Origin: Felis catus
Taxonomy: Eukaryota
Direction: 5' to 3'
DNA length: 64,000 nt
NCBI RefSeq assembly: GCF_018350175.1
Contig: NC_058375.1
Location: 139,438,001-139,502,000, forward strand
Below the pieces are notes generated by a model. It saw nothing but the letters and a program-made list of their open reading frames with translations. It did no database searches and was not told the DNA's origin. Position numbers and translations under genes: made by a program. Shown here one piece after another: positions 3,765-53,776 of the stretch. Positions within the stretch are counted from its first letter, which is position 1. Each line of letters starts with the position of its first letter.

Positions 3765-4950
3765 TCTAAAATTGAGGTATAATTGATATACAATTAAATG
3801 CATATCTTATAAGCACACTGTTCAATGGGATTTGATAAATGTATACACCCCATGTAAACACCACCCCACTCAAGACTTCTGTCACCCTCCAGAAAGTTTC
3901 CTTAGGCCCCTTTCCAGTTACTCCCCCTCTGCCAGAAGCAATCACTATTCTCATTTCAATCACACCACATATACTCTCTCTTCTTCACTCCATGTTTCAT
4001 TCATCCACATTGTTACATGTATCAGTAGTTAGTTTCTTTTCATTGCTAAGTATTATTCCATTGTAGACATGTGTTATAATTTGTTTATACATTCACCTGG
4101 ATATCTCAGTTGTGTATTTCCTATACTGTGTAACAAGTTACTACACATGTAGCAGTTAAAAACAACACACGCTTATTATCTCATAATCCCATGGTTCAGG
4201 AGTCCTATCATGACTGACTTGGTTGGGTTCTGTGCTCAGAGTCTCACAAAACAGCAACTATGGTATCATCCAAACTACATTACTGTCTGGAGCTTGGGGG
4301 TCCTCTTCCAAACTCACATGTTGTTGGCAGAATTCAGATCCTTGCAGCTGTAGGACTGACGACATTGGCGTCTTACTGGCTGTCAGCTGGAGACTGGCTG
4401 CCTGCTGCAGTTCCCGGCCACGTGGTCCTCTCAAGGGGCAGTTTACAACAAGGCTGTCTGCTTCTTCAAAGTCAGCAGGAGAGCCTTACTCTTCCATCTG
4501 CTAACACAGAATCCTATAAAATATAAGGAAAAATAAATAATAAGATATAAGCCATGGGAGTGACAGCTTGTCATCTTTGCCATATTAGAAGCACAAATTT
4601 CACCCAGTCTCAAGGAGAGGAGATTTACACAGGCCGTGTGGATAATCGAGGTTACTTAGAGTGTATCCACTAAGGTTGTTTCTAGTTTTTAGCTATTATG
4701 AATATTAGTGCACAACTGAATATATGCTTTTACTTGTCTTAGGCAAATATCTAGAAGGGAAGTTGCTGGATCATAGTGTAGGCATATATATTTAACCTTA
4801 TAAGAAAATGCCTAGCAGCTTTTCAAAATGGTTGTACTTTGCACCCCCATCAGCAATGTAATGAGAGTTCCAGCTGCTCCCCCTTTCCTTTTACTGATAT
4901 TTGCTGCTGTCTGTGTCATTTGAGCCACTTTCTATTGGCTATCAAATTTG
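3765..4950 (-). mobile_element. L1M 3' end split by an MLT1 LTR
   Basis: aaattgaggtataattgatatacaa terminus; L1 sequence stops near 4100 and resumes near 4675 (ggttgtttctagtttttagctattatgaat). Confidence 0.75.
4105..4672. mobile_element. MaLR MLT1 solo LTR inserted in L1
   Basis: tgtgtaacaagttactac...aaaacaacac...ttattatctca; ctcacatgttgttggcagaattcag typical of MLT1. Confidence 0.7.
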
Positions 4951-4954
4951 CATT

Positions 4955-5153
4955 TGAAAAAAATGTTTCTTTATTTTGAGAGAGACAGAGAGAGGCAAAG
5001 CGGGAGAGGGTCAGAGAAAGGGAGAGAGAGAATCCAAAGCAGACTCCATGCTGTCAGCGCAGAACATGGTGTAGATCTCATGGTTCGTAGGCTCATGACG
5101 TGAGCCAAAATCAAGAGTCAGACACTCAACTGACTGAGCCACTCAGGCATCCC
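4955..5153 (-). mobile_element. Can-SINE, older type
   Basis: Ends gactgagccactcaggcatccc; degenerate TSD aaatttgcattt/aaatctacattt. Confidence 0.9.
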
Positions 5154-5170
5154 TTAAATCTACATTTTTA

Positions 5171-5386
5171 GGGGCGCCTGGGTGGCTCAGTCAGTTGAGC
5201 GTCCGACTTCGGCTCAGGTCATGATCTCGTGGTTAATCAGTTCGAGCCCCACGTCGCGCTCTGTGCTGACAGCTCAGAGCCTGGAGCCTGCTTTGGATTC
5301 TGTGTCTCCCCCTCTCTCTGCTCCTTTCCCGCTCATGCTCTGTCTCTCTCTGTCTCAAAAATAAATAAACATTAAAAAAAAATTTT
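5171..5386 (+). mobile_element. Can-SINE (SINEC_Fc)
   Basis: Full head, CT tract, aataaa, A tail; TSD aatctacattttta 5157-5170/5387-5400. Confidence 0.96.
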
Positions 5387-5489
5387 AATCTACATTTTTA
5401 ATGAGCTCTGTGGGTCATTCTTAACACATATTCAACCACTGCTCTCGATGTGAGTCATAGAGCACATGTCCAGGACTACTCAGTACAGG

Positions 5490-6801: not shown

Positions 6802-7180
6802 TAGAAGGTGTCTGAAAAGTCCAGGTATATAGGATAAACCTAATTTAAAATAGTATGCTACTGCATTTCTAAATGAGGTGCTTAATATCTTTTTTTCTTC
6901 AACCTCCAGATACCTTCTCAGGTAAAATTCTTCTAGATTTCAGTGCACTACAGAGCGTTCGAAAAAGTCTGGAAACAGGGAAAATAAGTACTTACTGTAC
7001 TTTTCCAGGTGAGGAATTGGCCTCATTCTTTACCTTTGGAGGTTCTTTATCTGAAAAGGTATCTGGAGATTGAAAAACAAACCAAAAAAAGAACAGATTG
7101 AGCACATTTTGAAAAATATAACTGATACGCTGTTTAAAAGTAATCTGTGCTGTGTTGCCCAACATTTCAAACACCTTGTA
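6802..7180. mobile_element. Palindromic non-autonomous Tc1/mariner-type DNA element (resembles DNA1_Mam)
   Basis: TA-flanked inverted termini (tagaaggtgtctgaaa / tttcaaacaccttgta); inner arms 6898-6926 and 7046-7074 match 26/29 as inverted repeats. Confidence 0.7.
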
Positions 7181-25600: not shown

Positions 25601-25980
25601 AAAAAAATATAGAACTCTACGAAATCCAAGGAAATTTCAGGCTGTTGTTAATTTTTTAATTGACTTCTCTGTCTGGATAGATGGTAAAAGTTGGATACTA
25701 ATGTTCTTATTAATGTGGTTAATTGAGTAAAAGGAGGTAATATGTGCCTTACAGATGCTGAATAGCTCTCTACTCAATAGCACTTAATTTATCACCAACA
25801 CTAGGTACAGGATAGAAGAGGAAAGGTATATTTATGTCCTGTGAGGGATGGGAGGAAACATTTTAAGCTTTGTGACTTAAAATAAAATGCAAGGTGAGTG
25901 GTGCAAAGAACATGGGTCAATAATATGGACTTTTATTTAATGCAGACTTTTTAAAAATGTATTTAATATGGACTTTTTAA

Positions 25981-26193
25981 ATTTTTTTTTTTAACGTTTA
26001 CTTATTTTTGAGACAGGAGAGACAGAGCATGAACGGGGGAGGGGCAGAGAGAGAGGGAGACACAGAACCGGAAACAGGCTCCAGGCTCTGAGCCATCAGC
26101 CCAGAGCCCGATGCGGGGCTCGAACTCACGGACCGCGAGATCGTGACCTGGCTGAAGTCGGACGCTTAACCGACTGCGCCACCCAGGCGCCCC
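25981..26193 (-). mobile_element. Very young felid Can-SINE
   Basis: CpGs largely intact; variant motifs gactgcgccacc, agccatcagccc, gatcgtgacctggctg; TSD taatatggactttttaa/taatatggagtttttaa. Confidence 0.97.
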
Positions 26194-26210
26194 TAATATG
26201 GAGTTTTTAA

Positions 26211-26377
26211 AAAGAAGTTTATGTATTTTGAGAGAGAGAGAGAGGTGGGGGAGAGGCAAAAAGAGAGGGAGAGAGAAAATCCCAAGCAGGCTCTGTGTTG
26301 GATCTCATGAACCGTGAGGTCATGACCGGAGCCGATATCGAGTTGGATGCTTAACTGACTGATCCAGCCAGTACCCC
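26211..26377 (-). mobile_element. Older Can-SINE with internal deletion
   Basis: GA tract then catgaaccgtgaggtcatgacc...gcttaactgactga. Confidence 0.88.
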
Positions 26378-27151
26378 AATAATATGGACTTTTAAAGATT
26401 GTTATGGAATTAAATGGAGGGCAATGGCTATGTCTTTCTTGCTCACCATTCCATTCTCAGCTCCTAGGTTAGGTATAGATGGGATTCAATAGTTATGTAT
26501 GAAACAAACTAAAAGTGTCTAGTATAGTACCTGGTAAATGATATTGTTCCATAAGTGTTAGTCCTCCCTCTCCCTCCTCCCTCCCTGCTGCTCCCCATCT
26601 CTTCTTCTGGGGAATATTACCATAAAGGCTGATACTTTGTGTCCGAGAGGAAAGATTTTGTATCCTAAGAACTCATATGAGTTAATTCTGTATTATATTC
26701 TTATCTCTTTTATAAGTGTTGAGAAAAAATTAAAAGTACTCTAAATATGAGTTGTGGTAATAATAAACCCACTCTTTGAATCCATTCAAATTGTTTAATT
26801 TTAAAAAAGCTTTCTAGTAGTTACTTTAAAAGATAACCATGATAAAAATATATCATTAATAATAAGGAAATTTAAGAAGCCAGTAGTTTAATTGAAAACA
26901 TTAACCTCTTTTTAAGTTTGTATTTTACCACTCAGACTACCTTTGATTTTATTCTAACAAAAACAGTAGGAAATTTGTCAGCCATGTAAGTTTGACTCTA
27001 GATAAGATACTGCTAGTTTTAATTTTTTTTAAGGACAAAATAATCACTTCTTCTGATTGCTAAAAACATTGCTATAATTTACACCTAGCCTCATTTATCT
27101 TGAAGCATCACAGAAGAGGAATCATACTTCTTTTTATTCTGTATAGTTTTA

Positions 27152-35433: not shown

Positions 35434-36390
35434 AAGAAACAAACTTTATGAAAAATAATATTTGTATTCAAATAAAAGTTACTTTCCAAATATGAAACAG
35501 AGGCGTTCTGATTTGGGCACTGAAGTGGAAGCCAAGAATACACAGGCTGTGTCTCACTCGAAAAGAATATTGTGTTTTCAACCTCAAACTATTTTATTAC
35601 CAGCTCTATAGTCATTGACTACAGGGCAAGAGGATAGTGAAGATTTGGGGAAGAAATCTGTTACATGGTCAATGAAAAAGAAGAATAAAACAATAACTAC
35701 AGCAAAAATCTGTTACTGTAATAGAATTTCAGGTTTCAAAAGAATTTCTTTGAACTGCTTTAATTGGTTCTAAAATTCAGGGTAGGCCATAATAAGAGCA
35801 AATATTGTCAGCAATGGCTAGGTCAAATGACAGGCCAATAGGGTATGTGAACTCCAAGCTGGAATGGATCGGGGTCAGTATCAGTAAATTTCTTCAGGGA
35901 ATATCAGTCTACATGTACATCTTAGGGTCCTGCTACATGTGAGGCACAGAACTAGAGATACAGTGATTAACGGGGCAGATGTTGTTCCTGCTCTCCTCAA
36001 GCCTACTGCATCTTTTAGGCTTTGGGTTATGACTGTATTAGACACTGGTTGGGAGGTCTCAGGACTTTGGAAGAGCAACTTTAGAATGTTGAATGATCAG
36101 TAAACTGAAGAGCTTCGATAGCAGGGTGGCACTGATGAGAAAACGAGAGTTTTGGACTCAGGCTAGACCTGGATTTGAAACCACTTATGTGAATAATTAG
36201 TGTTGAAACTCAGCAAATTATCTGTCTGAGCCTGTTTCCTTATTAGTAAAATTATAACATTTCTCCATAGGGTTATAATGAGAACAAAGTGGAATTTAAT
36301 TAATTGAGATAATGTACTTTTTTAAAGTACTACTGTAGTGCCTGGTATATAATAGATACTGAATATTTCCTTTCTTGAAAGAGAGTAACA

Positions 36391-36830
36391 GGGCACCTGG
36401 GTGGCTCAGACAGTTAAGCCTCTGACTCTTGATTTTGGCTCAGGTCATGATCTCGGGGTTCGTGGGTTGGAGCCCCGCGTCAGACTCGGCGCTGACAGCA
36501 CAGAGCCTGTTTGGGATTCTCTTTCTCCCTCTCTCTGCCCTCACTTGCACATGCACGTTCTCTCTCAAAATAAATATAAACTTAAAAGAAAATTTAAAAA
36601 TGTTCTGCCTTGATAAACAGTTCTAAGCAGCAGTAAAATATAAATTTCATGAATGTTTTGTGTTTCATTTGAGTTGTATTTCAGCTTCCATTATAAACAA
36701 CATGTTCTAATTATTTTCTAAGTATTTTTTAAATTATACAGACTTGTAAAAAAGGAAACTCAAAAAACGTTGGCTCTTCCCTACTCGCACTCTTTTTGTC
36801 TCTCAAAATAAATAAACATTAAAAAAAGAG
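36391..36830 (+). mobile_element. Composite: Can-SINE + 175-nt copied unique sequence + second SINE tail
   Basis: TSD aagagagtaaca 36379-36390 / aagagaataaca 36832-36843 encloses all three parts. Confidence 0.88.
36596..36775 (+). repeat. Direct dispersed duplicate of 41572-41658 + 41848-41936
   Basis: Long shared strings, e.g. cagttctaagcagcagtaaaatataaatttcat, aatgttttgtgtttcatttgagttgtatttc, taagtattttttaaattata. Confidence 0.95.
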
Positions 36831-38079
36831 GAAGAGAATAACAATATAGAGGGGGGAAAAGTTATCTTTTCTGAATCTGAGAAGTGCTAGGCACCCAGAT
36901 AAAAACCCTGGATGACTCATTTCTTCAACCATGGCTCCCTCTACCCCCTTTTACACTTGCAGTGTTGACCACTACCAATAAGATCATGTTCTTTGCAGAG
37001 AACTAGAACTGCTCCAGAGGGTAGTACCTCGAGCAGGACATGCCCATAAGCTTGAGAAAAGTACTGCTTACAAGAAGTGAGTCATAACATCTCCATTGTT
37101 TCCAACAACAAAGTAGATGGAAAACACTTAACCCTTGCTAAATACTGCTTGAGGTTTTCTGGGTCAAATGTGTTAGACTGTGCCACAAAGTCCATATCTA
37201 CCATTTTGCCTCAAAGGGGAATGTGGTGAGAAGTGAGAAGAGGAAGAAGAGGAAAAAGGAAGAGGGGAACAAGTAGATGAGGGGGAAATGATGGAGGAAG
37301 AATTTTGATGCCATATAGAAATGACTGTAGAAATCATTTTTTTCACTTCTAGTCTTCAGCCAACCACCTACTTTTCTCTGAGCTAAATAGAATTTTTATC
37401 AGTTATTAGAAAATAGTAAAATGTGTTAGTCTTCCTAGGGATTTTGTAAGAACGCTGTAATGCTTAAAAGACTAACCAAGGAACTCTTGGCTAACCAAGA
37501 TTGATGTCAACAATAGTCTTGGTACTTACTTAATTTGTGTCAACTTCATTTCCCTTCCTCTTTAGAACATTCTCTACCCAGTTCAAGCTAATGTAATGTC
37601 TCCTTTCTCTGCTCTCTTATAGCCATTGTTGCCTGTGCAACTCACTTGGCAACTAATCATGTCCTACTGCCTTGTGTCATCTCCTGTGTAAAGAATTTAC
37701 ACTTTTAATTTTTTCCCATCATTTATATTACTTTTTGCCCAGTTCTTCAACTATTTACATCTCTTACTGTTACTCATCTTTCCAACCAACCTATCATCTC
37801 ATTAACGTGAAAGATCTCTGAGGGTTGGAACTTTATTTCAAACTTCTTTGCGTCTTCCATAATACCCAGTATTTCACACACATCTGCCACTTCGGAAATG
37901 TGTGCTGCCTTGATTAACTTTCATAAGTTTAACTCCTAAGAACACTGTTTTTGAAATCAGAATAATATCTACCATCCACTAAATAACTCTAATAAGTTTG
38001 GGTGACAGGTTCAAGGGCACTTGTTGCATTTGGCAGCCTCAAACATTAACCCTCACTGCTGCCATTAGCATCCTCCCCG

Positions 38080-40000
38080 CGAAGGATGAGCGAGGATGTA
38101 TTACCACGGAGAGCTCTTTGGGGCAGGTACTGAATAGAGGATACAGGGTGGAGGGGCTGCTTGACCGTTTTCGGGGCGGGCGGGACTCCGCAGATCTGCG
38201 CCGCTCTGAGTGGGCAGACGGAGGGGACCTTTCGCACCTCACGGGGATGTGCGAATTAGCTGGCGTTCGGGGCACGGTGGAGACTGCGCTAAGTACAGGC
38301 TCGCTGGTGGCTGTTGTGCACTGGTTGACATCTTCCTTTCCCGCTCACGGACTTCTGCAGACACGCGCTGCTCCGCGCGGCCGAGCTTTGCCCGGCGCTT
38401 TCCCTCGGGGCACTCTGCGAGCGGGGTGTCGGGGCCGCGGAGGCAAAGGTGCACGCTCGGGGGCGCGGGTTAACTTGCGCACCTGGCACCTGCCACACGG
38501 CGAGACGCGGACCAACGAGCCGAGGGCCACCGCCGCCCCCTCTCCCCCGAGCGGCCCGAGGCTNNNNNNNNNNNNNNNNNNNNNNNNNNNNNNNNNNNNN
38601 NNNNNNNNNNNNNNNNNNNNNNNNNNNNNNNNNNNNNNNNNNNNNNNNNNNNNNNNNNNNNNNNNNNNNNNNNNNNNNNNNNNNNNNNNNNNNNNNNNNN
38701 NNNNNNNNNNNNNNNNNNNNNNNNNNNNNNNNNNNNNNNNNNNNNNNNNNNNNNNNNNNNNNNNNNNNNNNNNNNNNNNNNNNNNNNNNNNNNNNNNNNN
38801 NNNNNNNNNNNNNNNNNNNNNNNNNNNNNNNNNNNNNNNNNNNNNNNNNNNNNNNNNNNNNNNNNNNNNNNNNNNNNNNNNNNNNNNNNNNNNNNNNNNN
38901 NNNNNNNNNNNNNNNNNNNNNNNNNNNNNNNNNNNNNNNNNNNNNNNNNNNNNNNNNNNNNNNNNNNNNNNNNNNNNNNNNNNNNNNNNNNNNNNNNNNN
39001 NNNNNNNNNNNNNNNNNNNNNNNNNNNNNNNNNNNNNNNNNNNNNNNNNNNNNNNNNNNNNNNNNNNNNNNNNNNNNNNNNNNNNNNNNNNNNNNNNNNN
39101 NNNNNNNNNNNNNNNNNNNNNNNNNNNNNNNNNNNNNNNNNNNNNNNNNNNNNNNNNNNNNNNNNNNNNNNNNNNNNNNNNNNNNNNNNNNNNNNNNNNN
39201 NNNNNNNNNNNNNNNNNNNNNNNNNNNNNNNNNNNNNNNNNNNNNNNNNNNNNNNNNNNNNNNNNNNNNNNNNNNNNNNNNNNNNNNNNNNNNNNNNNNN
39301 NNNNNNNNNNNNNNNNNNNNNNNNNNNNNNNNNNNNNNNNNNNNNNNNNNNNNNNNNNNNNNNNNNNNNNNNNNNNNNNNNNNNNNNNNNNNNNNNNNNN
39401 NNNNNNNNNNNNNNNNNNNNNNNNNNNNNNNNNNNNNNNNNNCACTTGGCGTACGGCCTCTGTTTACCTTCCACTCCGAACCTTCCTCCGGCACGGGGTT
39501 AATTAATGGGCGAGGGATCTTTTGGCTAGGAAAGGTTTTCTCTTCCCACTTTCAAATTTAGTTTTGCATTGGGTTCTCGTTGAAATTACTTGTGGAAAGT
39601 AAAGCGCGTTCATAACAAACACCTTCCTCCTAGCAAGGTAATCCCGGCTCCCCGGCCGGCGGTGGTGCAGCGGGATGAGGCGGTGCAGCACTGCGGCGGG
39701 GGAGGGCGGGAGCCGCGACTACCCAGCGGGGTGTAGCGGTAGAGAGCCGTTGACCGGCTGGCTCCGCGGCGGCGAGAGGGACGGCGCTGCCCACCTAGCC
39801 GGGACGGCACCGGTTCGGCACACAGCGTTAGAAAGCAAACAGGGATGTTCACCTACGAGCCGCTGGCGCTGCCCTGTCCCCGCGCCGCGTCCCCGGGAAT
39901 TGTCATCATAGAGGGTGGTCTTTTGGAAGTTGAGGATTTAATGCATCCAAATTGACGGTTGCATTTTTGATAACACAACGGTTTCTGCAAAGATTCTGCT
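38080..40000 (+). promoter_or_regulatory. CpG-island promoter of an unidentified gene; TSS/exon 1 probably in gap 38564-39442
   Basis: Sharp rise in GC and CpG on both sides of the gap; GC boxes (ggggcggg near 38174, gggcggg near 39704); + strand inferred from downstream G+T skew. Confidence 0.85.
38564..39442. other. Assembly gap (879 N); others at 1984-2200, 29030-29209, 50035-50206, 50508-50642, 50788-50938, 61067-61210
   Basis: N runs. Confidence 0.99.
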
Positions 40001-40280: not shown

Positions 40281-41385
40281 CTCCAGTTCTGACCTCATTA
40301 TATTACCCTGTTATTACTACTTTCTGCTGTGATTTAATCACATTTTTCTTTGGTCTTTGATTACTTGGAAGTCTTACACTTCCAGGAGAAAATGAATATG
40401 GCAACGGTATCGGGATGAACATTAAGTATTGAGGTTTTCAAAAAATAAGATGAAAACCCAACATTTGCTGTAGATTTAGATCTAAGTCATATGAGAATAT
40501 TCTTTTTGTTTTAAAAATGAAGTTTATTTCTAGCAGCTCAATTTTCCATGGGAACGATAATTAAAATAAAGTTATAGTATGTACAAGAATTGAATTGGAC
40601 TTTAAAAAACACAACTTTGTATTCCACAAAGTTAAATTTTTGTTAATATTATTGTATGGGATTTGACCCAAGAGGAGAAGTAGCTTATGAATCTTCAAGT
40701 ATCAGTAGTGATGTAATTACTTGGATCCAGTTATTTGGGTTTGAGAAGAACTAAAATCAAGAAGCTTGTTCTAGAATGAACAATTAACCCGAAAGATAAG
40801 TTACTTTTTGTGAACTGAGCAGCAATATACTTACAGCTTTTGGTTCTTAGTTTGCCACATGTGTCTTGGTATTTTACCTGAATTTAGGAAGAAAACTTGC
40901 AGTTTAGTTATTTTTTTAATGATGTATTAAAAACAAATAATTAAACCCTTTCACTGTTAACTTTTTCAGTAACAGTTGTGACTTTCAATCTGGAGATGGG
41001 AAATCAGATTATATTGGATTATTTTCAGTAGCCTGCTTCAGTTGCCCACTTCCAGGGAAGAAGAAATCCAGTTTATGATGGAACTAGAGTTGAAACCCAG
41101 GACTTCTGACTCTTTGGTCCTTTCTGCCTCTTTGATGTTACAAGTGGTGGTACTTAAAATCAAAACAAAACTGAACAAACCCTGACAGTTAAGATTTATA
41201 ACTATCTTTTGCTTCCCAGAATGTACAGTTGGGGTGTTTGTTTTTTCTTTCCTCTTTTTTAAATTAACGTGTAAGAAGACTTGTGCTTACATGAGTGACA
41301 GTCGATTCAGTTCTTCTGGTCCTGTTTACAGGACTTCTGTTATTAAGCAGAATTATTTGTTCATTTTAAAAAAATGTTCTGCCTT

Positions 41386-41575
41386 CGGCACCTGGGTGGC
41401 TCAGTCAGTTAAGCTTCCGCTTGATTTCGGCTCAGGTCATGATCTCATGGTTTGTGGGATCAAGCCCTAAGTCGGGCTCTGCTCTGACAGTTTCTCTGTC
41501 TCCCTCTCTCTCTCCCTCTCTCTCTCTGCCCTTTTCTCGCTCATGTGCACTCCCTCTCGAAATAAAATTAAAAAA
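41386..41575 (+). mobile_element. Can-SINE with internal deletion
   Basis: TSD aaaaatgttctgcctt / aaaactgttctgcctt. Confidence 0.93.
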
Positions 41576-41658
41576 CTGTTCTGCCTTGAAAAGCAGTTCT
41601 AAGCAGCAGTAAAATATAAATTTCATAAATGTTTTGTGTTTCATTTGAGTTGTATTTC

Positions 41659-41834
41659 TTTTTTTTTTTTAATGTATGTTTATTTTGAGAGAGAGAGGGC
41701 ATTCACGCAAGCAGGGGAGGCACAGAGAGAGGGAGACAGAATCTCAAGCAGGCTTATACTCACAACCATGAGATCATGACCTGAGCTGAAATCAGGAGTC
41801 AGACCCTTAACTGACTGAGCCACCCAGGTGCCCC
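41659..41834 (-). mobile_element. Can-SINE with internal deletion
   Basis: Perfect TSD tgagttgtatttc 41646-41658/41835-41847. Confidence 0.94.
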
Positions 41835-42554
41835 TGAGTTGTATTTCAATTCAGCTTCCATTACCAACATGTTCTAGTTACTTTTGTAAGTATTTTTTAA
41901 ATTATATAGACTTGTAAAAAAAAAATAACCTTGGCTTGTGGATTTATAATTGTTGCTTTGCATTTCTAACTATCCACAATATGACTCCTTTCCTGCTTGG
42001 TTGACAGAATCTTTTGACTTCACTTGAACCACCTTCATGAATCTTAACCTCCATTCTCACTCCGCCCCCACCCCGCCCCGGTAAAATTAAAAACTGTGTC
42101 TATTGGATTATTATTAGACTTTGTTTATATAGTCATTGACTCAGTTTTGAGTTATATTTTGATAATACTTAGATGAGATAATCTAGGCATTCTTTGACAT
42201 TGGTAGCACTCTCATCATTCTCTTAGCTCTTTCTTTTCTTTTGGACATGTAGGCATCTTCTTTTGTTCCCTTTCCTCATTTTCCTTGTCTTTTGCCTAAG
42301 GTCTGCCAGTAGGCATCCTCCTAAACTTGGTCTCTATAGTGCTCTACATGACACTTGATTTAGGTCAAATACTGTTAACTTGTGTTTATTTAGAATCTAA
42401 ACCAGAATGATCAGGTGATCATCACAACACCCCTTGAGTGTTGTATAGAGATAGTTGATGTTTTTTGATAATACAGTACTTAACCATTTTTCGACTACTA
42501 CTTGTGTCCCAGATACTATGTTAATAACTTTACATACGATTAGTTCATTTAATC

Positions 42555-42995
42555 CTTTTTAAAATTAAGTTTTTTGAGTTATTTATATGCAATAAAATGT
42601 GCTCATTTAAAGCATAGAGTTTATGAGTTTTGACAAACATGTACACACAAGGAAATGCCACCACAATCAAGATAAAGCAACATTTCAAACACCCCAAAAA
42701 TTCCCTTGTGCTCCTTTGCAAGTCATTCCATCTACACCAGTAGTTCTAAGCAATTACTCATTTGTTTTCTTTCCCTATAGATTTTAGTATTGTTTTTTCT
42801 AGAATTACATTTAAATGGATTTCACATACTCTTTTGTGTCAGGCTTCTTTTGCTTAGCATGATGCATTAACGATTCATCCTTGTTACATGTATCAGTCCA
42901 TTCCTTTTTATTACTGAACAGTATTCTAGTGAATTGTTGTAATATATTCATCCATCCATCTGGATATTTGAATTGCTTCCTGTTTTTGGTTTTCA
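42555..42995 (-). mobile_element. L1M 3' end inserted in a MIR
   Basis: aataaaatgtgctcatttaaag...gagttttgacaaac...accacaatcaagat; MIR halves near 42480-42555 and 42997-43140. Confidence 0.75.
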
Positions 42996-43514: not shown

Positions 43515-44199
43515 TAAATTGCTAACTGTAGTTTTTCATCACTTAATTGTGTATGATTTTTGCTTTTGGCTTTTCAGATTTTCTGTTTCTTTTTCCTTTT
43601 TTCTTAGAAGTTTATTTACTTTGCTTCTCTGTAGTGGTACCATTATGTTTATCTGAATGTTTACGTTACCATAAGCATGTAAGAAATTTGTGGGAAACTA
43701 TTATTTTTTATTGTTTAGATTTTATTTTAATAGAATATAATCTATGTAAGGACAAGGATCTTTGCATATTTTGTTCATTAATGTATTCCGAGTATCTGAA
43801 ACTGTGCCTGGAACATAATATATGTTTGCTAAATGTTGGTTAAGTGTTGAATGAGCCTCTTTTTTTTTCTTTCTATACTAAGATCTATGTTTTTATGAAA
43901 CACTGTGTGTGCGTGCATACGTGTGTGTGTAATTCATTAGCAGATTTTGGGAAATTATTCATGGAATTCTTTTTGGTTTCTTACTTTGATACAACATGTA
44001 CCTAAATACTAAATGTATATATTTTTTCCCTCTTGAGTGAGAGGCCCCTTTAAATACACAATTTTGAACACACAGGTATGGCTGCAATATTTTTATTTTG
44101 TGTTAATTACCCTTCTCATAGGTGTATGTAGATTTGTATAAGATACCTTTTTGTATTAGAGTGAACCAAAATTTCTATAAAGCATGTGATTCTTATTTT

Positions 44200-44407
44200 C
44201 AATTTTTAAAAATGTTTTATTTATTTTTGAGAGAGAGACCGAGTATGAGCAGGGGAAGGGCAGAAAGAGGGAGACACAGAATCTGAAGACAGCTCCAGGC
44301 TCTGAGCTGTCAGCACAGAGCCTGACGCGGGGCTCGAACTCTTGAACTGCGAGATCATGACCTGAGCTGAAGTCAGACGCTTAACTGACTGAACCACCCA
44401 GGTGTCC
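44200..44407 (-). mobile_element. Can-SINE
   Basis: Full reverse element. Confidence 0.94.
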
Positions 44408-44423
44408 AATTCTGCTTATTTTT

Positions 44424-44638
44424 TTTTAATTTTTTTTTTAATGTTTATTTATTTTTGAGACAGAGACAGAGCATGAACAGGGGAGGGGCAGAGAGAGAGG
44501 GAGACACAGAATCCGAAACAGGCTCCAGGCTCCGAGCTGCCAGCACAGAGCCCGACGTGGGGCTCGAACTCACGGACTGTGAGATCATGACCTGAGCCGA
44601 AGTCGGACGCTTAACCGACCAAGCCACCCAGGCGCCCC
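44424..44638 (-). mobile_element. Young Can-SINE, tandem to the previous one
   Basis: TSD aattctgcttattttt 44408-44423/44640-44655. Confidence 0.96.
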
Positions 44639-51724: not shown

Positions 51725-51903
51725 AGCGACTGAGCACGAGTGCGGGAGGGGCAGAGAGAGAGAGGGAGACACAGAATTCGAAGCAGGCTCCAGGCTCCAA
51801 GCTGTCAGCAAAGAGCTGGACGCGGGGCTTGAACTCCCGAACCATGAGATCTTGACCTGGTCTGAAGTCAGATGCTTAAATGACTGAGCCACCCAGGCAC
51901 CCC
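51665..51903 (-). mobile_element. Can-SINE with long (GA)n
   Basis: TSD taattatctt. Confidence 0.94.
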
Positions 51904-53361
51904 TAATTATCTTTTTAAGTAGTGATAAGTATAAACAATATTTAAGTAGTGATAAGTATTAACAACCCCTAATTATCTTTTTAAGTAGTGATAAGTATAA
52001 ACAATATTTGGACAAGTGCAACCACTGTAATAGGACAATGAAACGATCTGTGATTTCTGTTGTATTGCTAGTCCTGAGTATTACTAGTACTGTTATTTTG
52101 CCTTTTGCCTACATTAGTAATTGAAGGAAATGTTAAATTTGATAGAAGTTAGTGGAATAAGAGAAATGATTGTTTTCTCACCCAAGTTTATGGCCCCTCA
52201 ATTCTTTCTTTGGAAGTTTTGAAGGTCTTTGACCTGAGGTTTAGAATCCCTCAGAAGAATTTCTTTGGCCCAAATGGCAACCTTATTGCCATGTCATCCT
52301 TGTCCCAAATATATAGTTAGGCTAAAGATTTTATTATTACTATAAAGGAGATGTTACTGTAAACAGAATATGTTATTTTTGTATTTAAGATATTTTCTAC
52401 ATTTTTTAAGTTGGAAAATAATATACCCACATGATGTAAAGATAAAAATTTATACCACAAAATGATATATATGAAAAGTAAATGTCCTTCCTCCCCACAT
52501 CCCAGACACTGTACAGAGGCAGCTGTTGTTGGCATCATGCATGTGTATCCTAGAAAACTGCTAAACAAATGCTTATTTCTTGTATTCATTTTGTAAGTAA
52601 TATGTGACCTTAGAGTTAGTTTCTTAATCTAGAGTCATTCATTAAGTCAGGTAATTTTGATTTTAAATTTAAAAATCTCTGAGGAATTGAGAATTGGCAA
52701 ATTGTAGCTTTCTAATTCGATTGTTTGGAGTTTAGATATAAAACCTTAATCTTTTATTCCCACGTTGCAGTTTGGCTGTCTGTAAGCCTTGCATTGTGCA
52801 TAGGACTTTTGTTTATTTTTCTATATATAAAATAAGTATTTTAAAGTCCGATTAACTATTAAATGTCTTGTCAGTGAATTTTTTTTTTACCAATTATTTA
52901 TGGCCTTAAGTAGCAGTTTAGGTCAGAAGAGCAATAATAGGCTCCCCTTTTGAAGAAAGTCGTCTTATTTCGGGTTATCATATTGGTAAGCTGGATCTTT
53001 CACACAGACTGCACTCTTTCAAACTTTCATTGCAGTTGTTTGTGTTCATTCATTAAGTAGCTCCGTGAATGCATGGACTGTGTCTGTATTACCTTTGTAA
53101 TACAGCTGCTTACTAAATAGTTGCTGATGGAGCGAGCAATGCCTGTTATGTACTTTAGGTTACAGAAAGGAATAGAGGTGGTACCTGTCTTCAAGCAGTT
53201 TGTAGTCCCAAAGAAAAGAGTTGTACATGGATGACTGCATATAAGGTTTAATGTGTTATGTAAAAAGTAAAAATTATATTGTGGAAATTTGTGTCACAAG
53301 GACGTGATTTGAACAAGAGTATGTCTGAGCTCATGTAATAGCTAGTAGAAGATACCAAATT

Positions 53362-53532
53362 GGGGTGTCTGGGTGGCTCAGTCGGGTAAACATCCAACTC
53401 TTGGTTTCAGCTCAGGTCATGATCTCACTGTTGGTGGGGTTGAGCCCTGCACTGGGCTCTGTACTGTCAGCAGAGATTCTCTGCTGTCTCTCTGGGATTC
53501 TCTCTGTCTCTCAAATAATAAACTTAAAAAAA
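53362..53532 (+). mobile_element. Older Can-SINE
   Basis: ggggtgtctgggtggctcagtcgg head; A tail. Confidence 0.9.
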
Positions 53533-53551
53533 ATACTACTGAATTATTTTT

Positions 53552-53776
53552 TTTTTTTTAAATTTTTTTTCAACGTTTTTATTTTATTTTTGGGACAGAG
53601 AGAGACAGAGCATGAATGGGGGAGGGGCAGAGAGAGAGGGAGACACAGAATCGGAAACAGGCTCCAGACTCTGAGCCATCAGCCCAGAGCCTGACGCGGG
53701 GCTCGAACTCCCGGACCGCGAGATCGTGACCTGGCTGAAGTCGGACGCTTAACCCACTGCGCCACCCAGGCGCCCC
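53552..53776 (-). mobile_element. Very young felid Can-SINE
   Basis: Same variant motifs as 25981-26193; TSD tgaattattttt. Confidence 0.97.

What the first reader, a model, noticed from the sequence alone, without database searches (positions are those of the whole stretch)
36379..36843. Two-tailed SINE that captured about 175 nt of unique DNA from the far side of the promoter
Seen: one TSD (aagagagtaaca/aagagaataaca) encloses a complete Can-SINE (36391-~36595), a non-repeat segment (36596-36775), and a second, different SINE 3' end (ctcttccctactcgcac...aaataaacattaaaaaaa). The middle segment is a direct-orientation copy of the sequence right after the SINE at 41386-41575, starting with that SINE's own TSD (tgttctgcctt) and ending at a shared ttggct. 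Inference: SINE-homology-primed templated insertion, in which a broken end in the 36.4-kb SINE invaded the 41.4-kb SINE, copied its tail and flank, then returned to its own CT tract by microhomology. L1 reverse-transcriptase template switching onto nascent pre-mRNA is an alternative, since the donor is in sense orientation in the inferred first intron. Simple Pol III 3' transduction fits poorly, because the copy runs through a T6 terminator (36725-36730) and ends in a SINE tail rather than poly(A).
Basis: partly seen in the sequence, partly recalled or inferred. Interest (0 to 1): 0.8.

Follow-up and report, generated by a model that had tools for sequence, protein, structure and literature searches.

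The report
Cat-family SINE holding copied neighbouring DNA
An old jumping-element copy in a cat-family genome contains a 175-base piece copied from about 5,000 bases away, most likely the scar of a faulty DNA repair between two similar repeats; it is a real but ordinary kind of rearrangement with no sign of function.

Summary
The structure is real. One target-site duplication (36377-36390 / 36830-36843) encloses a full Can-SINE, 175 nt copied from 5 kb downstream (about 5% diverged) and a second SINE 3' end. The copy is therefore older than that insertion, probably pre-felid, and is not an assembly chimera.

Best explanation (0.5): a DNA end in the 36.4-kb SINE primed on the same-orientation 41.4-kb SINE, copied about 175 nt past it and rejoined its own locus. 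Main support: the copy starts exactly at the donor SINE's TSD, and only 14 of 154 A-run clusters lie in SINE tails. Not shown: that the first tail comes from the donor (tests flip with window and score), or microhomology at the return junction (2 nt at most). Rivals: a truncated second SINE with templated filler inserted into the first tail (0.2); reverse-transcriptase template switching (0.2). No orthologues or repeat library could be searched. A new example of a known class; low interest.

The parts
36377..36390 (+). Left TSD (14-mer; core 12-mer 36379-36390), preceded by TT
36391..36534 (+). SINE1 5' body and CT tract: full-length Can-SINE with the subfamily-I-type insertion (TCTTGAT)
   Evidence: subfamily motif from PMC4084570 section 6
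36535..36600 (+). Tail 1: SINE 3' end and A-rich tail; source (donor SINE or SINE1's own) unresolved
36601..36775 (+). 175-nt copied segment (27% GC); with the preceding A-run it begins at about 36593-36596; lacks SINE3
36776..36829 (+). Tail 2: 5'-truncated Can-SINE 3' end with its own A-rich tail
36830..36843 (+). Right TSD
38001..40000 (.). CpG-rich putative promoter, interrupted by an 879-N assembly gap (38564-39442); strand asymmetry points to + strand transcription downstream
41366..41385 (+). Left TSD of the donor SINE (19 of 20 match)
41386..41576 (+). Donor SINE, same orientation and subfamily-I type as SINE1, with internal deletions
41568..41587 (+). Right TSD of the donor SINE, where the copied sequence starts
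41577..41658 (+). Donor segment, part 1 (79 of 82 identical to 36601-36682)
41659..41834 (-). SINE3: reversed Can-SINE inserted into the donor after the copy was made; TSD 41646-41658 / 41835-41847; exact TCCTGAT motif
41848..41936 (+). Donor segment, part 2, ending at TTGGCT

Best explanation
A SINE-homology-primed copy-and-rejoin event at the DNA level. SINE1 first inserted normally at 36.39 kb, making the outer TSD (hallmarks shown; order inferred). Later, or while the insertion was being completed, a free 3' end in its CT tract or A-tail paired with the then nearly identical, same-orientation SINE 5 kb downstream (inferred). Synthesis ran about 175 nt beyond that SINE into unique DNA (the copy is shown), was released, and was joined back to the other end in SINE1's CT tract with little or no homology (junction shown; mechanism inferred). 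Two sub-versions: tail 1 is the donor's tail and tail 2 is SINE1's original tail (about 0.35-0.4), or tail 1 is SINE1's own and tail 2 a re-copy of it (about 0.1-0.15). Had synthesis simply continued, the 5 kb holding the CpG island would have been deleted, so this may be the surviving, aborted form of a SINE/SINE deletion (inference). SINE3 inserted into the donor afterwards (shown by its TSD and absence from the copy). No function is implied.
For: The copy begins exactly at the donor SINE's right TSD, next to a same-orientation SINE of the same subfamily type; only 14 of 154 clusters of A5+ runs on the + strand lie in + strand SINE tails, and 4 of the 15 + strand SINEs carry the subfamily-I motif. 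One outer TSD and none at SINE1's usual position. On a 41-nt window with CpG transitions forgiven, tail 1 and the donor tail are reciprocal best matches among 27; 0 of 20 other subfamily-I pairs and 0 of 133 I-II pairs reach that score, and 19% of simulated sister copies score as low. The two SINE 5' regions differ at 4 of 70 non-CpG sites, second lowest of 36 subfamily-I pairs, so they were good pairing partners; 12 nt of in-register identity precede tail 1. Homology-initiated synthesis ended by end joining is shown experimentally in mammalian cells (PMC5104497, abstract and passages); Alu pairs prime template switches with homologies mostly under 25 bp (PMC6071635, passages).
Against: Tail 1 differs from the donor tail at 5 of 32 non-CpG sites against 7 of 150 in the flank (Fisher p=0.039; 0.058 with the ragged end). 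On raw score the donor ranks 7 of 27 for tail 1. With the A-rich part included it ranks 4 of 27 CpG-aware and outside the top 8 raw, and only 2.7% of simulated sisters at the flank rate score as low (30% at twice the rate); the tail 1/tail 2 version fares the same (2.5%, 28%). The CpG-aware score was chosen after seeing the data and the simulated ancestor was built from the sequences tested. Neither tree joins SINE1 and donor, and shared rare states do not single the pair out (39 of 435 pairs equal or exceed it in the tail). The left junction also fits the pre-insertion donor site. Microhomology at the right junction is 2 nt at most, although in PMC5104497 junctions used microhomology and/or added nucleotides.
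Confidence: 0.5

Rival explanations
1. Two insertions. SINE1 (with tail 1) inserted first. Later a 5'-truncated second SINE inserted into SINE1's A-tail, and its cDNA picked up 175 nt of nearby template (DNA or nascent RNA) before being joined through A-rich pairing. The donor SINE plays no part and may have inserted later at the same TT/AAAA site.
For: Needs no relationship among the three tails, which fits the unresolved tests. Both tails end in AAAAGA, a possible 6-bp inner TSD (the pattern occurs in 4 of 28 tails including these two). SINEs sitting in or beside another SINE's tail occur in this window (26192 in 26372; 53775 beside 53363). The junction fits the empty donor site. L1 insertions with templated non-L1 pieces under 250 bp are described (10.1101/2024.08.27.596794, passages).
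Against: It leaves as coincidence that the filler starts at a same-orientation SINE's TSD (14 of 154 A-run clusters). The templates in that study typically lay within 15 bp of the insertion site, not 5 kb away. A 6-bp, A-rich TSD is weak evidence, and a re-copied tail explains it equally.
Confidence: 0.2
2. One retrotransposition with reverse-transcriptase template switching. L1 ORF2p primed on a SINE RNA (tail 2), jumped after about 55 nt to RNA from the donor region (nascent pre-mRNA, or a read-through transcript of the donor SINE), copied the flank, and finished either on the donor SINE itself or after a second jump onto a SINE RNA.
For: All parts are in one orientation inside one TSD with an endonuclease-like site and A-tail, as in full-length-Alu/L1 chimeras (452 cases, PMC13174262 section 12). 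The donor is on the strand that strand asymmetry marks as transcribed (T-A skew +0.13 right of the island, -0.017 left). SINE1 and donor 5' regions are no more diverged than the flank (4 of 70 vs 7 of 150), which a whole-SINE copy would give.
Against: A Pol III transcript would have to pass T4, T4 and T6 present in both copies; four T suffice for termination and no Alu transduction was confirmed among 118,489 AluY (10.1101/2024.04.29.591526, first third of the text). A Pol II template gives no reason to stop at the SINE 5' end, so two jumps are needed, the first landing by chance within 175 nt of a SINE tail. No shared rare states mark SINE1 as a copy of the donor; they differ at SINE1 position 77, the likely B-box site that the subfamily paper calls diagnostic. 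The segment matches no Rfam family and folds no better than shuffles.
Confidence: 0.2
3. Homology-independent patch or multi-step history: a break in SINE1 was patched with a nearby fragment that happened to include a SINE end (class-2 templated sequence insertion), or a larger duplication was later trimmed by deletions to the present form.
For: Class-2 insertions lack TSD and poly(A) of their own and are enriched for transcribed donors (PMC5110952, passages); the inner piece has no clear TSD of its own.
Against: No remnant of a larger duplication: flanks on either side do not align. An in-register SINE/SINE left junction is not expected of a random patch.
Confidence: 0.08
4. Assembly artefact: reads of the donor region were mis-joined between two SINE reads.
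For: The window is a gapped assembly with 7 N-runs.
Against: Copy and donor differ by 10 substitutions in 165 columns, 4 gaps and a whole SINE with TSD; the outer TSD closes the structure.
Confidence: 0.02

Closest known systems
[quoted passage not shown] 2016, PMC5104497; the term one-sided invasion was seen only as a reference title)
   Same: Homologous left junction, synthesis beyond the homology, non-homologous join to the second end, giving a short duplication at the break.
   Different: Those are induced events in reporter cells using the sister copy of the reporter, with kilobase tracts; here the partner is an ectopic SINE, the tract is about 175-240 nt, and the event is an old germ-line fossil.
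Alu/Alu-mediated and TE-mediated rearrangements (AAMR, PMC6071635; TEMR, PMC9675761)
   Same: Two same-orientation SINEs a few kb apart, a junction that rebuilds one complete SINE, short homology, replication-type template switching proposed; junctions in poly-A tails and Alu-to-unique junctions are reported.
   Different: The catalogued products are mostly deletions, tandem duplications and inversions; here there are two junctions and the outcome is a short dispersed insertion that leaves the intervening DNA intact; Can-SINE rather than Alu.
L1-type insertions with templated non-element sequence (10.1101/2024.08.27.596794) and RT-switch chimeras such as Alu/L1 (PMC13174262)
   Same: Several same-orientation pieces inside one TSD; short copied genomic segment under 250 bp; full-length Pol III element at the 5' end and a truncated element at the 3' end.
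   Different: Three parts rather than two; template 5 kb away rather than within about 15 bp; both retroposon parts are SINEs.
Templated sequence insertion polymorphisms, classes 1 and 2 (PMC5110952)
   Same: Short unique sequence duplicated into a new site with the donor left intact; donor probably transcribed.
   Different: The unique piece has no poly(A) or TSD of its own (not class 1) and begins at a SINE junction near the acceptor rather than at a distant site; polymorphism unknown.
SINE 3' transduction (searched for in Alu, 10.1101/2024.04.29.591526)
   Same: SINE followed by the unique flank of another SINE locus, an A-tail and a displaced TSD.
   Different: The flank runs through three T-runs and ends in a second SINE end rather than poly(A); SINE1 is not shown to be a copy of the donor SINE.

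Membership tests
L1-mobilised Can-SINE insertion (outer element) | TSD flanking the element | tested here: met
   12-14 bp, 1-2 mismatches; 10 of 4807 random windows score as well
L1-mobilised Can-SINE insertion (outer element) | Endonuclease-type site and 3' A-rich tail | tested here: met
   TT/GAAA, one mismatch to TT/AAAA; A-rich tail before the right TSD
Feliform CanSINE subfamily I (PMC4084570) | TCCTGAT motif near position 36 | tested here: met
   Exact in SINE3; TCTTGAT in SINE1; CTTGAT after a 3-nt deletion in the donor SINE. No reference consensus was available, so assignment rests on this motif.
TE-mediated rearrangement, homologous junction (TEMR-HR / AAMR) | Two homologous elements in the orientation that fits the product | tested here: met
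   Both + strand, 5.0 kb apart across an N-gap
TE-mediated rearrangement, homologous junction (TEMR-HR / AAMR) | Chimeric element whose 3' part derives from the partner, with an in-register homology at the switch | tested here: inconclusive
   Supported on one window and score, not on others; 12-nt in-register identity exists
TE-mediated rearrangement, homologous junction (TEMR-HR / AAMR) | Unrearranged allele known, so that breakpoints can be mapped | not testable with these tools
HR initiated, end-joining terminated conversion | Copy extends beyond the homology into unique donor flank | tested here: met
   175 nt past the donor SINE's tail
HR initiated, end-joining terminated conversion | Microhomology or added nucleotides at the join to the second end | tested here: inconclusive
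   2 nt (CT) at most, no added bases visible, original sequence unknown
SINE 3' transduction | No Pol III terminator (4 or more T) inside the transduced flank | tested here: not met
   T4, T4, T6 in both copy and donor (criterion)
SINE 3' transduction | Flank ends in a poly(A) tail next to the TSD | tested here: not met
   It ends in a second SINE 3' end
SINE 3' transduction | Inserted SINE is a copy of the source SINE | tested here: inconclusive
   5' distance 4 of 70, second lowest of 36 pairs, but no tree or shared-state support
RT template-switch chimera | All parts in sense orientation within one TSD | tested here: met
RT template-switch chimera | All parts arrive at the same time in the species tree | not testable with these tools
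   Needs orthologue alignments as in PMC13174262 section 10
Class 1 TSIP | Unique insert with its own poly(A) and TSD | tested here: not met
   Neither is present around the 175 nt itself, apart from a possible 6-bp AAAAGA
   Only two copies in 64 kb and no Rfam match; no Dfam or mammalian genome search was available

The most novel reading that the evidence does not exclude
The composite is a single retrotransposition in which the whole donor SINE plus 175 nt of its 3' flank were carried as RNA and fused by a reverse-transcriptase jump to another SINE's tail, that is, a true SINE 3' transduction rescued by template switching and inserted 5 kb from its source. This would show a route by which SINEs move flanking DNA despite Pol III terminators, something a dedicated Alu survey failed to confirm.
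Probability: 0.1. Interest if true: 0.6.

Novelty: new member of a known kind. Interest (0 to 1): 0.3.

Why it matters
As a single locus it matters little: no gene, RNA or regulatory role is evident. It is a tidy, internally dated fossil of repeat-guided copying in the germ line, and possibly of a SINE/SINE deletion that aborted and so spared a CpG-island promoter. It has a practical use: such composites mimic SINE 3' transductions (displaced TSD, unique flank, A-tail) and could be miscalled. A genome-wide count of SINE-flank-SINE-tail composites with nearby donors in carnivores would measure how often homology-primed synthesis is rescued by end joining, and would separate DNA-level from RT-level routes.

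Tried and rejected
Gene identification: 147 of 474 stop-free frames of 48 aa or more were scanned against Pfam; one sub-threshold match, no exon identified; a whole-frame scan was not possible. The host gene stays unknown. Rfam: 0 matches for 36300-36900 at E up to 1 and 0 in the whole window at gathering scores, so a snoRNA or other known RNA as template is unsupported; the segment folds worse than 188 of 200 shuffles. Trees of 5' and 3' SINE halves were unresolved (21 of 27 and 19 of 25 inner branches open). Shared-rare-state counts were uninformative. TSD mismatches are too few to date anything. Two scripts failed and were corrected (the part printed before the error is used). The automatic tail extraction dropped 2 copies and cut some wrongly, so rankings are taken; those use 27 of the 30 copies plus tail 2 (1831 is cut by a gap; 18235 and 53363 lack a comparable tail). 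Rejected: assembly chimera; larger eroded duplication; simple Pol III transduction; 36.4 kb as the donor (it would leave the single TSD and second tail unexplained); a parallel SINE insertion into the copied endonuclease site (needs a deletion ending exactly at the TSD). The protein, structure, phage, plasmid and bacterial genome collections were not used because they cannot hold this non-coding mammalian locus. Ten literature searches listed no report of this locus or of such a Can-SINE composite; I judged most from titles and abstract starts, subscription papers are not covered, and no supplements were read, where locus lists could bear on this.

Full report
Context. The window is from a cat-family genome: it holds 30 Can-SINE copies of near full length, two of which (26192, 53775) carry the A-box change and one-base deletion that PMC4084570 (section 6) gives for the felid subtype IIB. 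It is a gapped assembly with 7 N-runs. No gene was identified.

Observation. A 12-14 bp TSD (36377-36390 / 36830-36843) encloses a full SINE (SINE1, 36391-36600), a 175-nt segment (36601-36775) and a second SINE 3' end (36776-36829). The TSD score is reached by 10 of 4807 random windows. SINE1 has no TSD at the normal distance, while 23 of the other 28 copies scored do; the only other copy with a strong distant TSD (26372) has a younger SINE in its tail. The middle segment matches 41577-41658 at 79 of 82 and 41848-41936 with 7 substitutions and 4 gaps; up to the last A-run the difference is 7 of 150 (4.7%, 95% interval 1.9-9.4%). Nothing outside the segment aligns, and it has no third copy in the window.

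The donor is split by a third SINE (SINE3, 41659-41834, minus strand) with a perfect 13-bp TSD; the copy has the TSD sequence once and no SINE. The simplest reading is that the copy was made before SINE3 inserted. SINE3 has the exact TCCTGAT motif of subfamily I; SINE1 and the donor SINE have variants of it. In PMC4084570, 26 of 28 subfamily-I loci date to the feliform ancestor and 2 to non-felid lineages, so the event probably predates the cat family. About 5% divergence in 27%-GC sequence is compatible with a few tens of millions of years at rates near 1-2 x 10^-9 per site per year (rate recalled, not from a call); the interval is wide. These differences also exclude an assembly chimera. The 5-kb distance and the orientation rest on scaffolding across an 879-N gap whose two edges are both CpG-rich; such gaps at GC-rich gene starts are typical (PMC7980453, search listing only).

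Transcription. With SINEs masked, 40001-64000 has T-A skew +0.13 and G-C skew +0.085, against -0.017 and +0.031 for 1-38000. Excess T and G on the coding strand is the known mark of germ-line transcription (recalled). So the donor is probably in a + strand transcript and the acceptor upstream of it. 'First intron' is not shown: 147 of 474 frames gave no exon in Pfam.

Did the donor SINE take part? For: the copy starts exactly at that SINE's right TSD. If the junction only needed an A-run, the chance of this is about 9% (14 of 154 A5+ clusters lie in + strand SINE tails) and about 3% if only subfamily-I copies count (4 of 15). SINE1 and donor are close in their 5' regions (4 of 70 non-CpG differences, second lowest of 36 subfamily-I pairs), and 12 nt of in-register identity precede tail 1. 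Against certainty: the junction sequence also fits the empty site, because the donor TSD itself starts with TT and an A-run.

Where does tail 1 come from? On a 41-nt window with CpG transitions forgiven, tail 1 and the donor tail are reciprocal best matches among 27 (57 vs 55 for the runner-up; 55 vs 45 the other way); 0 of 20 other subfamily-I pairs, 0 of 133 I-II pairs and 40 of 171 II-II pairs reach that score; 19% of simulated sisters score as low. But on raw score the donor ranks 7 of 27; non-CpG differences are 5 of 32 against 7 of 150 in the flank (p=0.039); with the A-rich part included the donor falls to rank 4 of 27 and only 2.7% of simulated sisters at the flank rate score as low, 30% at twice the rate. 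The alternative that tail 2 is a re-copy of tail 1 scores alike (2.5%, 28%) and would explain why both tails end in AAAAGA. Trees and shared rare states give no support to either. The CpG-aware score was chosen after looking at the data. Tail rankings use 27 of 30 copies plus tail 2.

Right junction. Homology ends at TTGGCT; the 10-mer pattern around it occurs 4 times in the window, including these two. Tail 2 continues in register with a SINE CT tract. Shared bases across the junction are at most CT, so 'return by microhomology' is possible but not demonstrated.

Mechanism. Best (0.5): a 3' end in SINE1 primed on the neighbouring SINE, copied about 175 nt past it, and was joined back. Homology first and a sloppy exit second is the order shown for non-canonical termination of recombination in mammalian cells (PMC5104497, abstract and passages) and fits Alu-primed template switching (PMC6071635, PMC4888836, passages). 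In this direction the template must be the donor's bottom strand, hence DNA and not the sense pre-mRNA (inference). Completing the switch would have deleted the CpG island, so the aborted product is the one likely to survive (inference). Rival 1 (0.2): a truncated second SINE with templated filler inserted into SINE1's tail; nested SINEs occur here and templated pieces under 250 bp occur in L1 insertions, though typically from within 15 bp (10.1101/2024.08.27.596794, passages). Rival 2 (0.2): RT template switching in one insertion; orientation and TSD fit (PMC13174262, abstract, passages, sections 10 and 12), but a Pol III template must pass T4, T4 and T6 and a Pol II template needs two jumps. 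Simple 3' transduction fails two defining tests; none was confirmed among 118,489 AluY (10.1101/2024.04.29.591526, first of three parts). The canine paper read for comparison treats L1 transductions only in the passages seen (PMC13141329). Homology-free patch or multi-step history 0.08 (PMC5110952, passages); artefact 0.02.

Relation to what is known. It works like a TE-mediated rearrangement with one homologous and one non-homologous junction (PMC9675761, PMC4356517, passages; PMC10760644, passages, added nothing specific). Formal membership is not established, because the chimeric origin of SINE1 is inconclusive and the unrearranged allele is unknown. Ten searches listed no description of this locus or of such a Can-SINE composite; coverage is open-access only and no supplements were read.

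Verdict. A real, old, probably neutral composite; a new example of a known kind. Orthologues, Dfam and long reads stayed unchecked and would decide between the mechanisms. Interest 0.3.

Noticed in passing
window 41659-41834 (-): A reversed subfamily-I SINE with a perfect 13-bp TSD splits the donor segment; it dates the copy and is now part of the analysis.
   Followed up: yes
window 51899-52009: A 45-nt stretch at the 5' flank of the SINE at 51902 is repeated 66 nt further on with 100% identity, with a third partial copy between: a recent local duplication with a templated junction, or an assembly slip.
   Followed up: partly
window 25915-26385 (-): A young subtype-IIB SINE (26192) sits at the 3' TSD of an old, internally deleted SINE (26372); the target sequence occurs three times plus a degenerate copy, suggesting reuse of one insertion site.
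   Followed up: partly
window 44196-44637 (-): Head-to-tail pair of SINEs; the one at 44637 has a 16-bp TSD ending at the start of the one at 44407.
   Followed up: no
window 53363-53775: Tail-to-tail pair: a young reversed SINE inserted just after the tail of an old, rearranged + strand SINE.
   Followed up: no
window 4960-5390: Head-to-head pair of SINEs only about 20 nt apart (5152 minus, 5172 plus).
   Followed up: no
window 38001-40000 and 40001-64000: CpG-rich region with an 879-N gap, followed by at least 24 kb of strong T-over-A and G-over-C skew with no exon found: probably the start and long first intron of an unidentified + strand gene.
   Followed up: partly
window 3999-4112 and 42873-42975: Weak non-SINE similarity (69% over 114 nt, E=1.6e-4), probably two copies of an ancient repeat.
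   Followed up: no
window 6891-6926 and 7046-7081: A 36-nt inverted repeat, 86% identical, about 120 nt apart; possibly a small DNA-transposon remnant.
   Followed up: no
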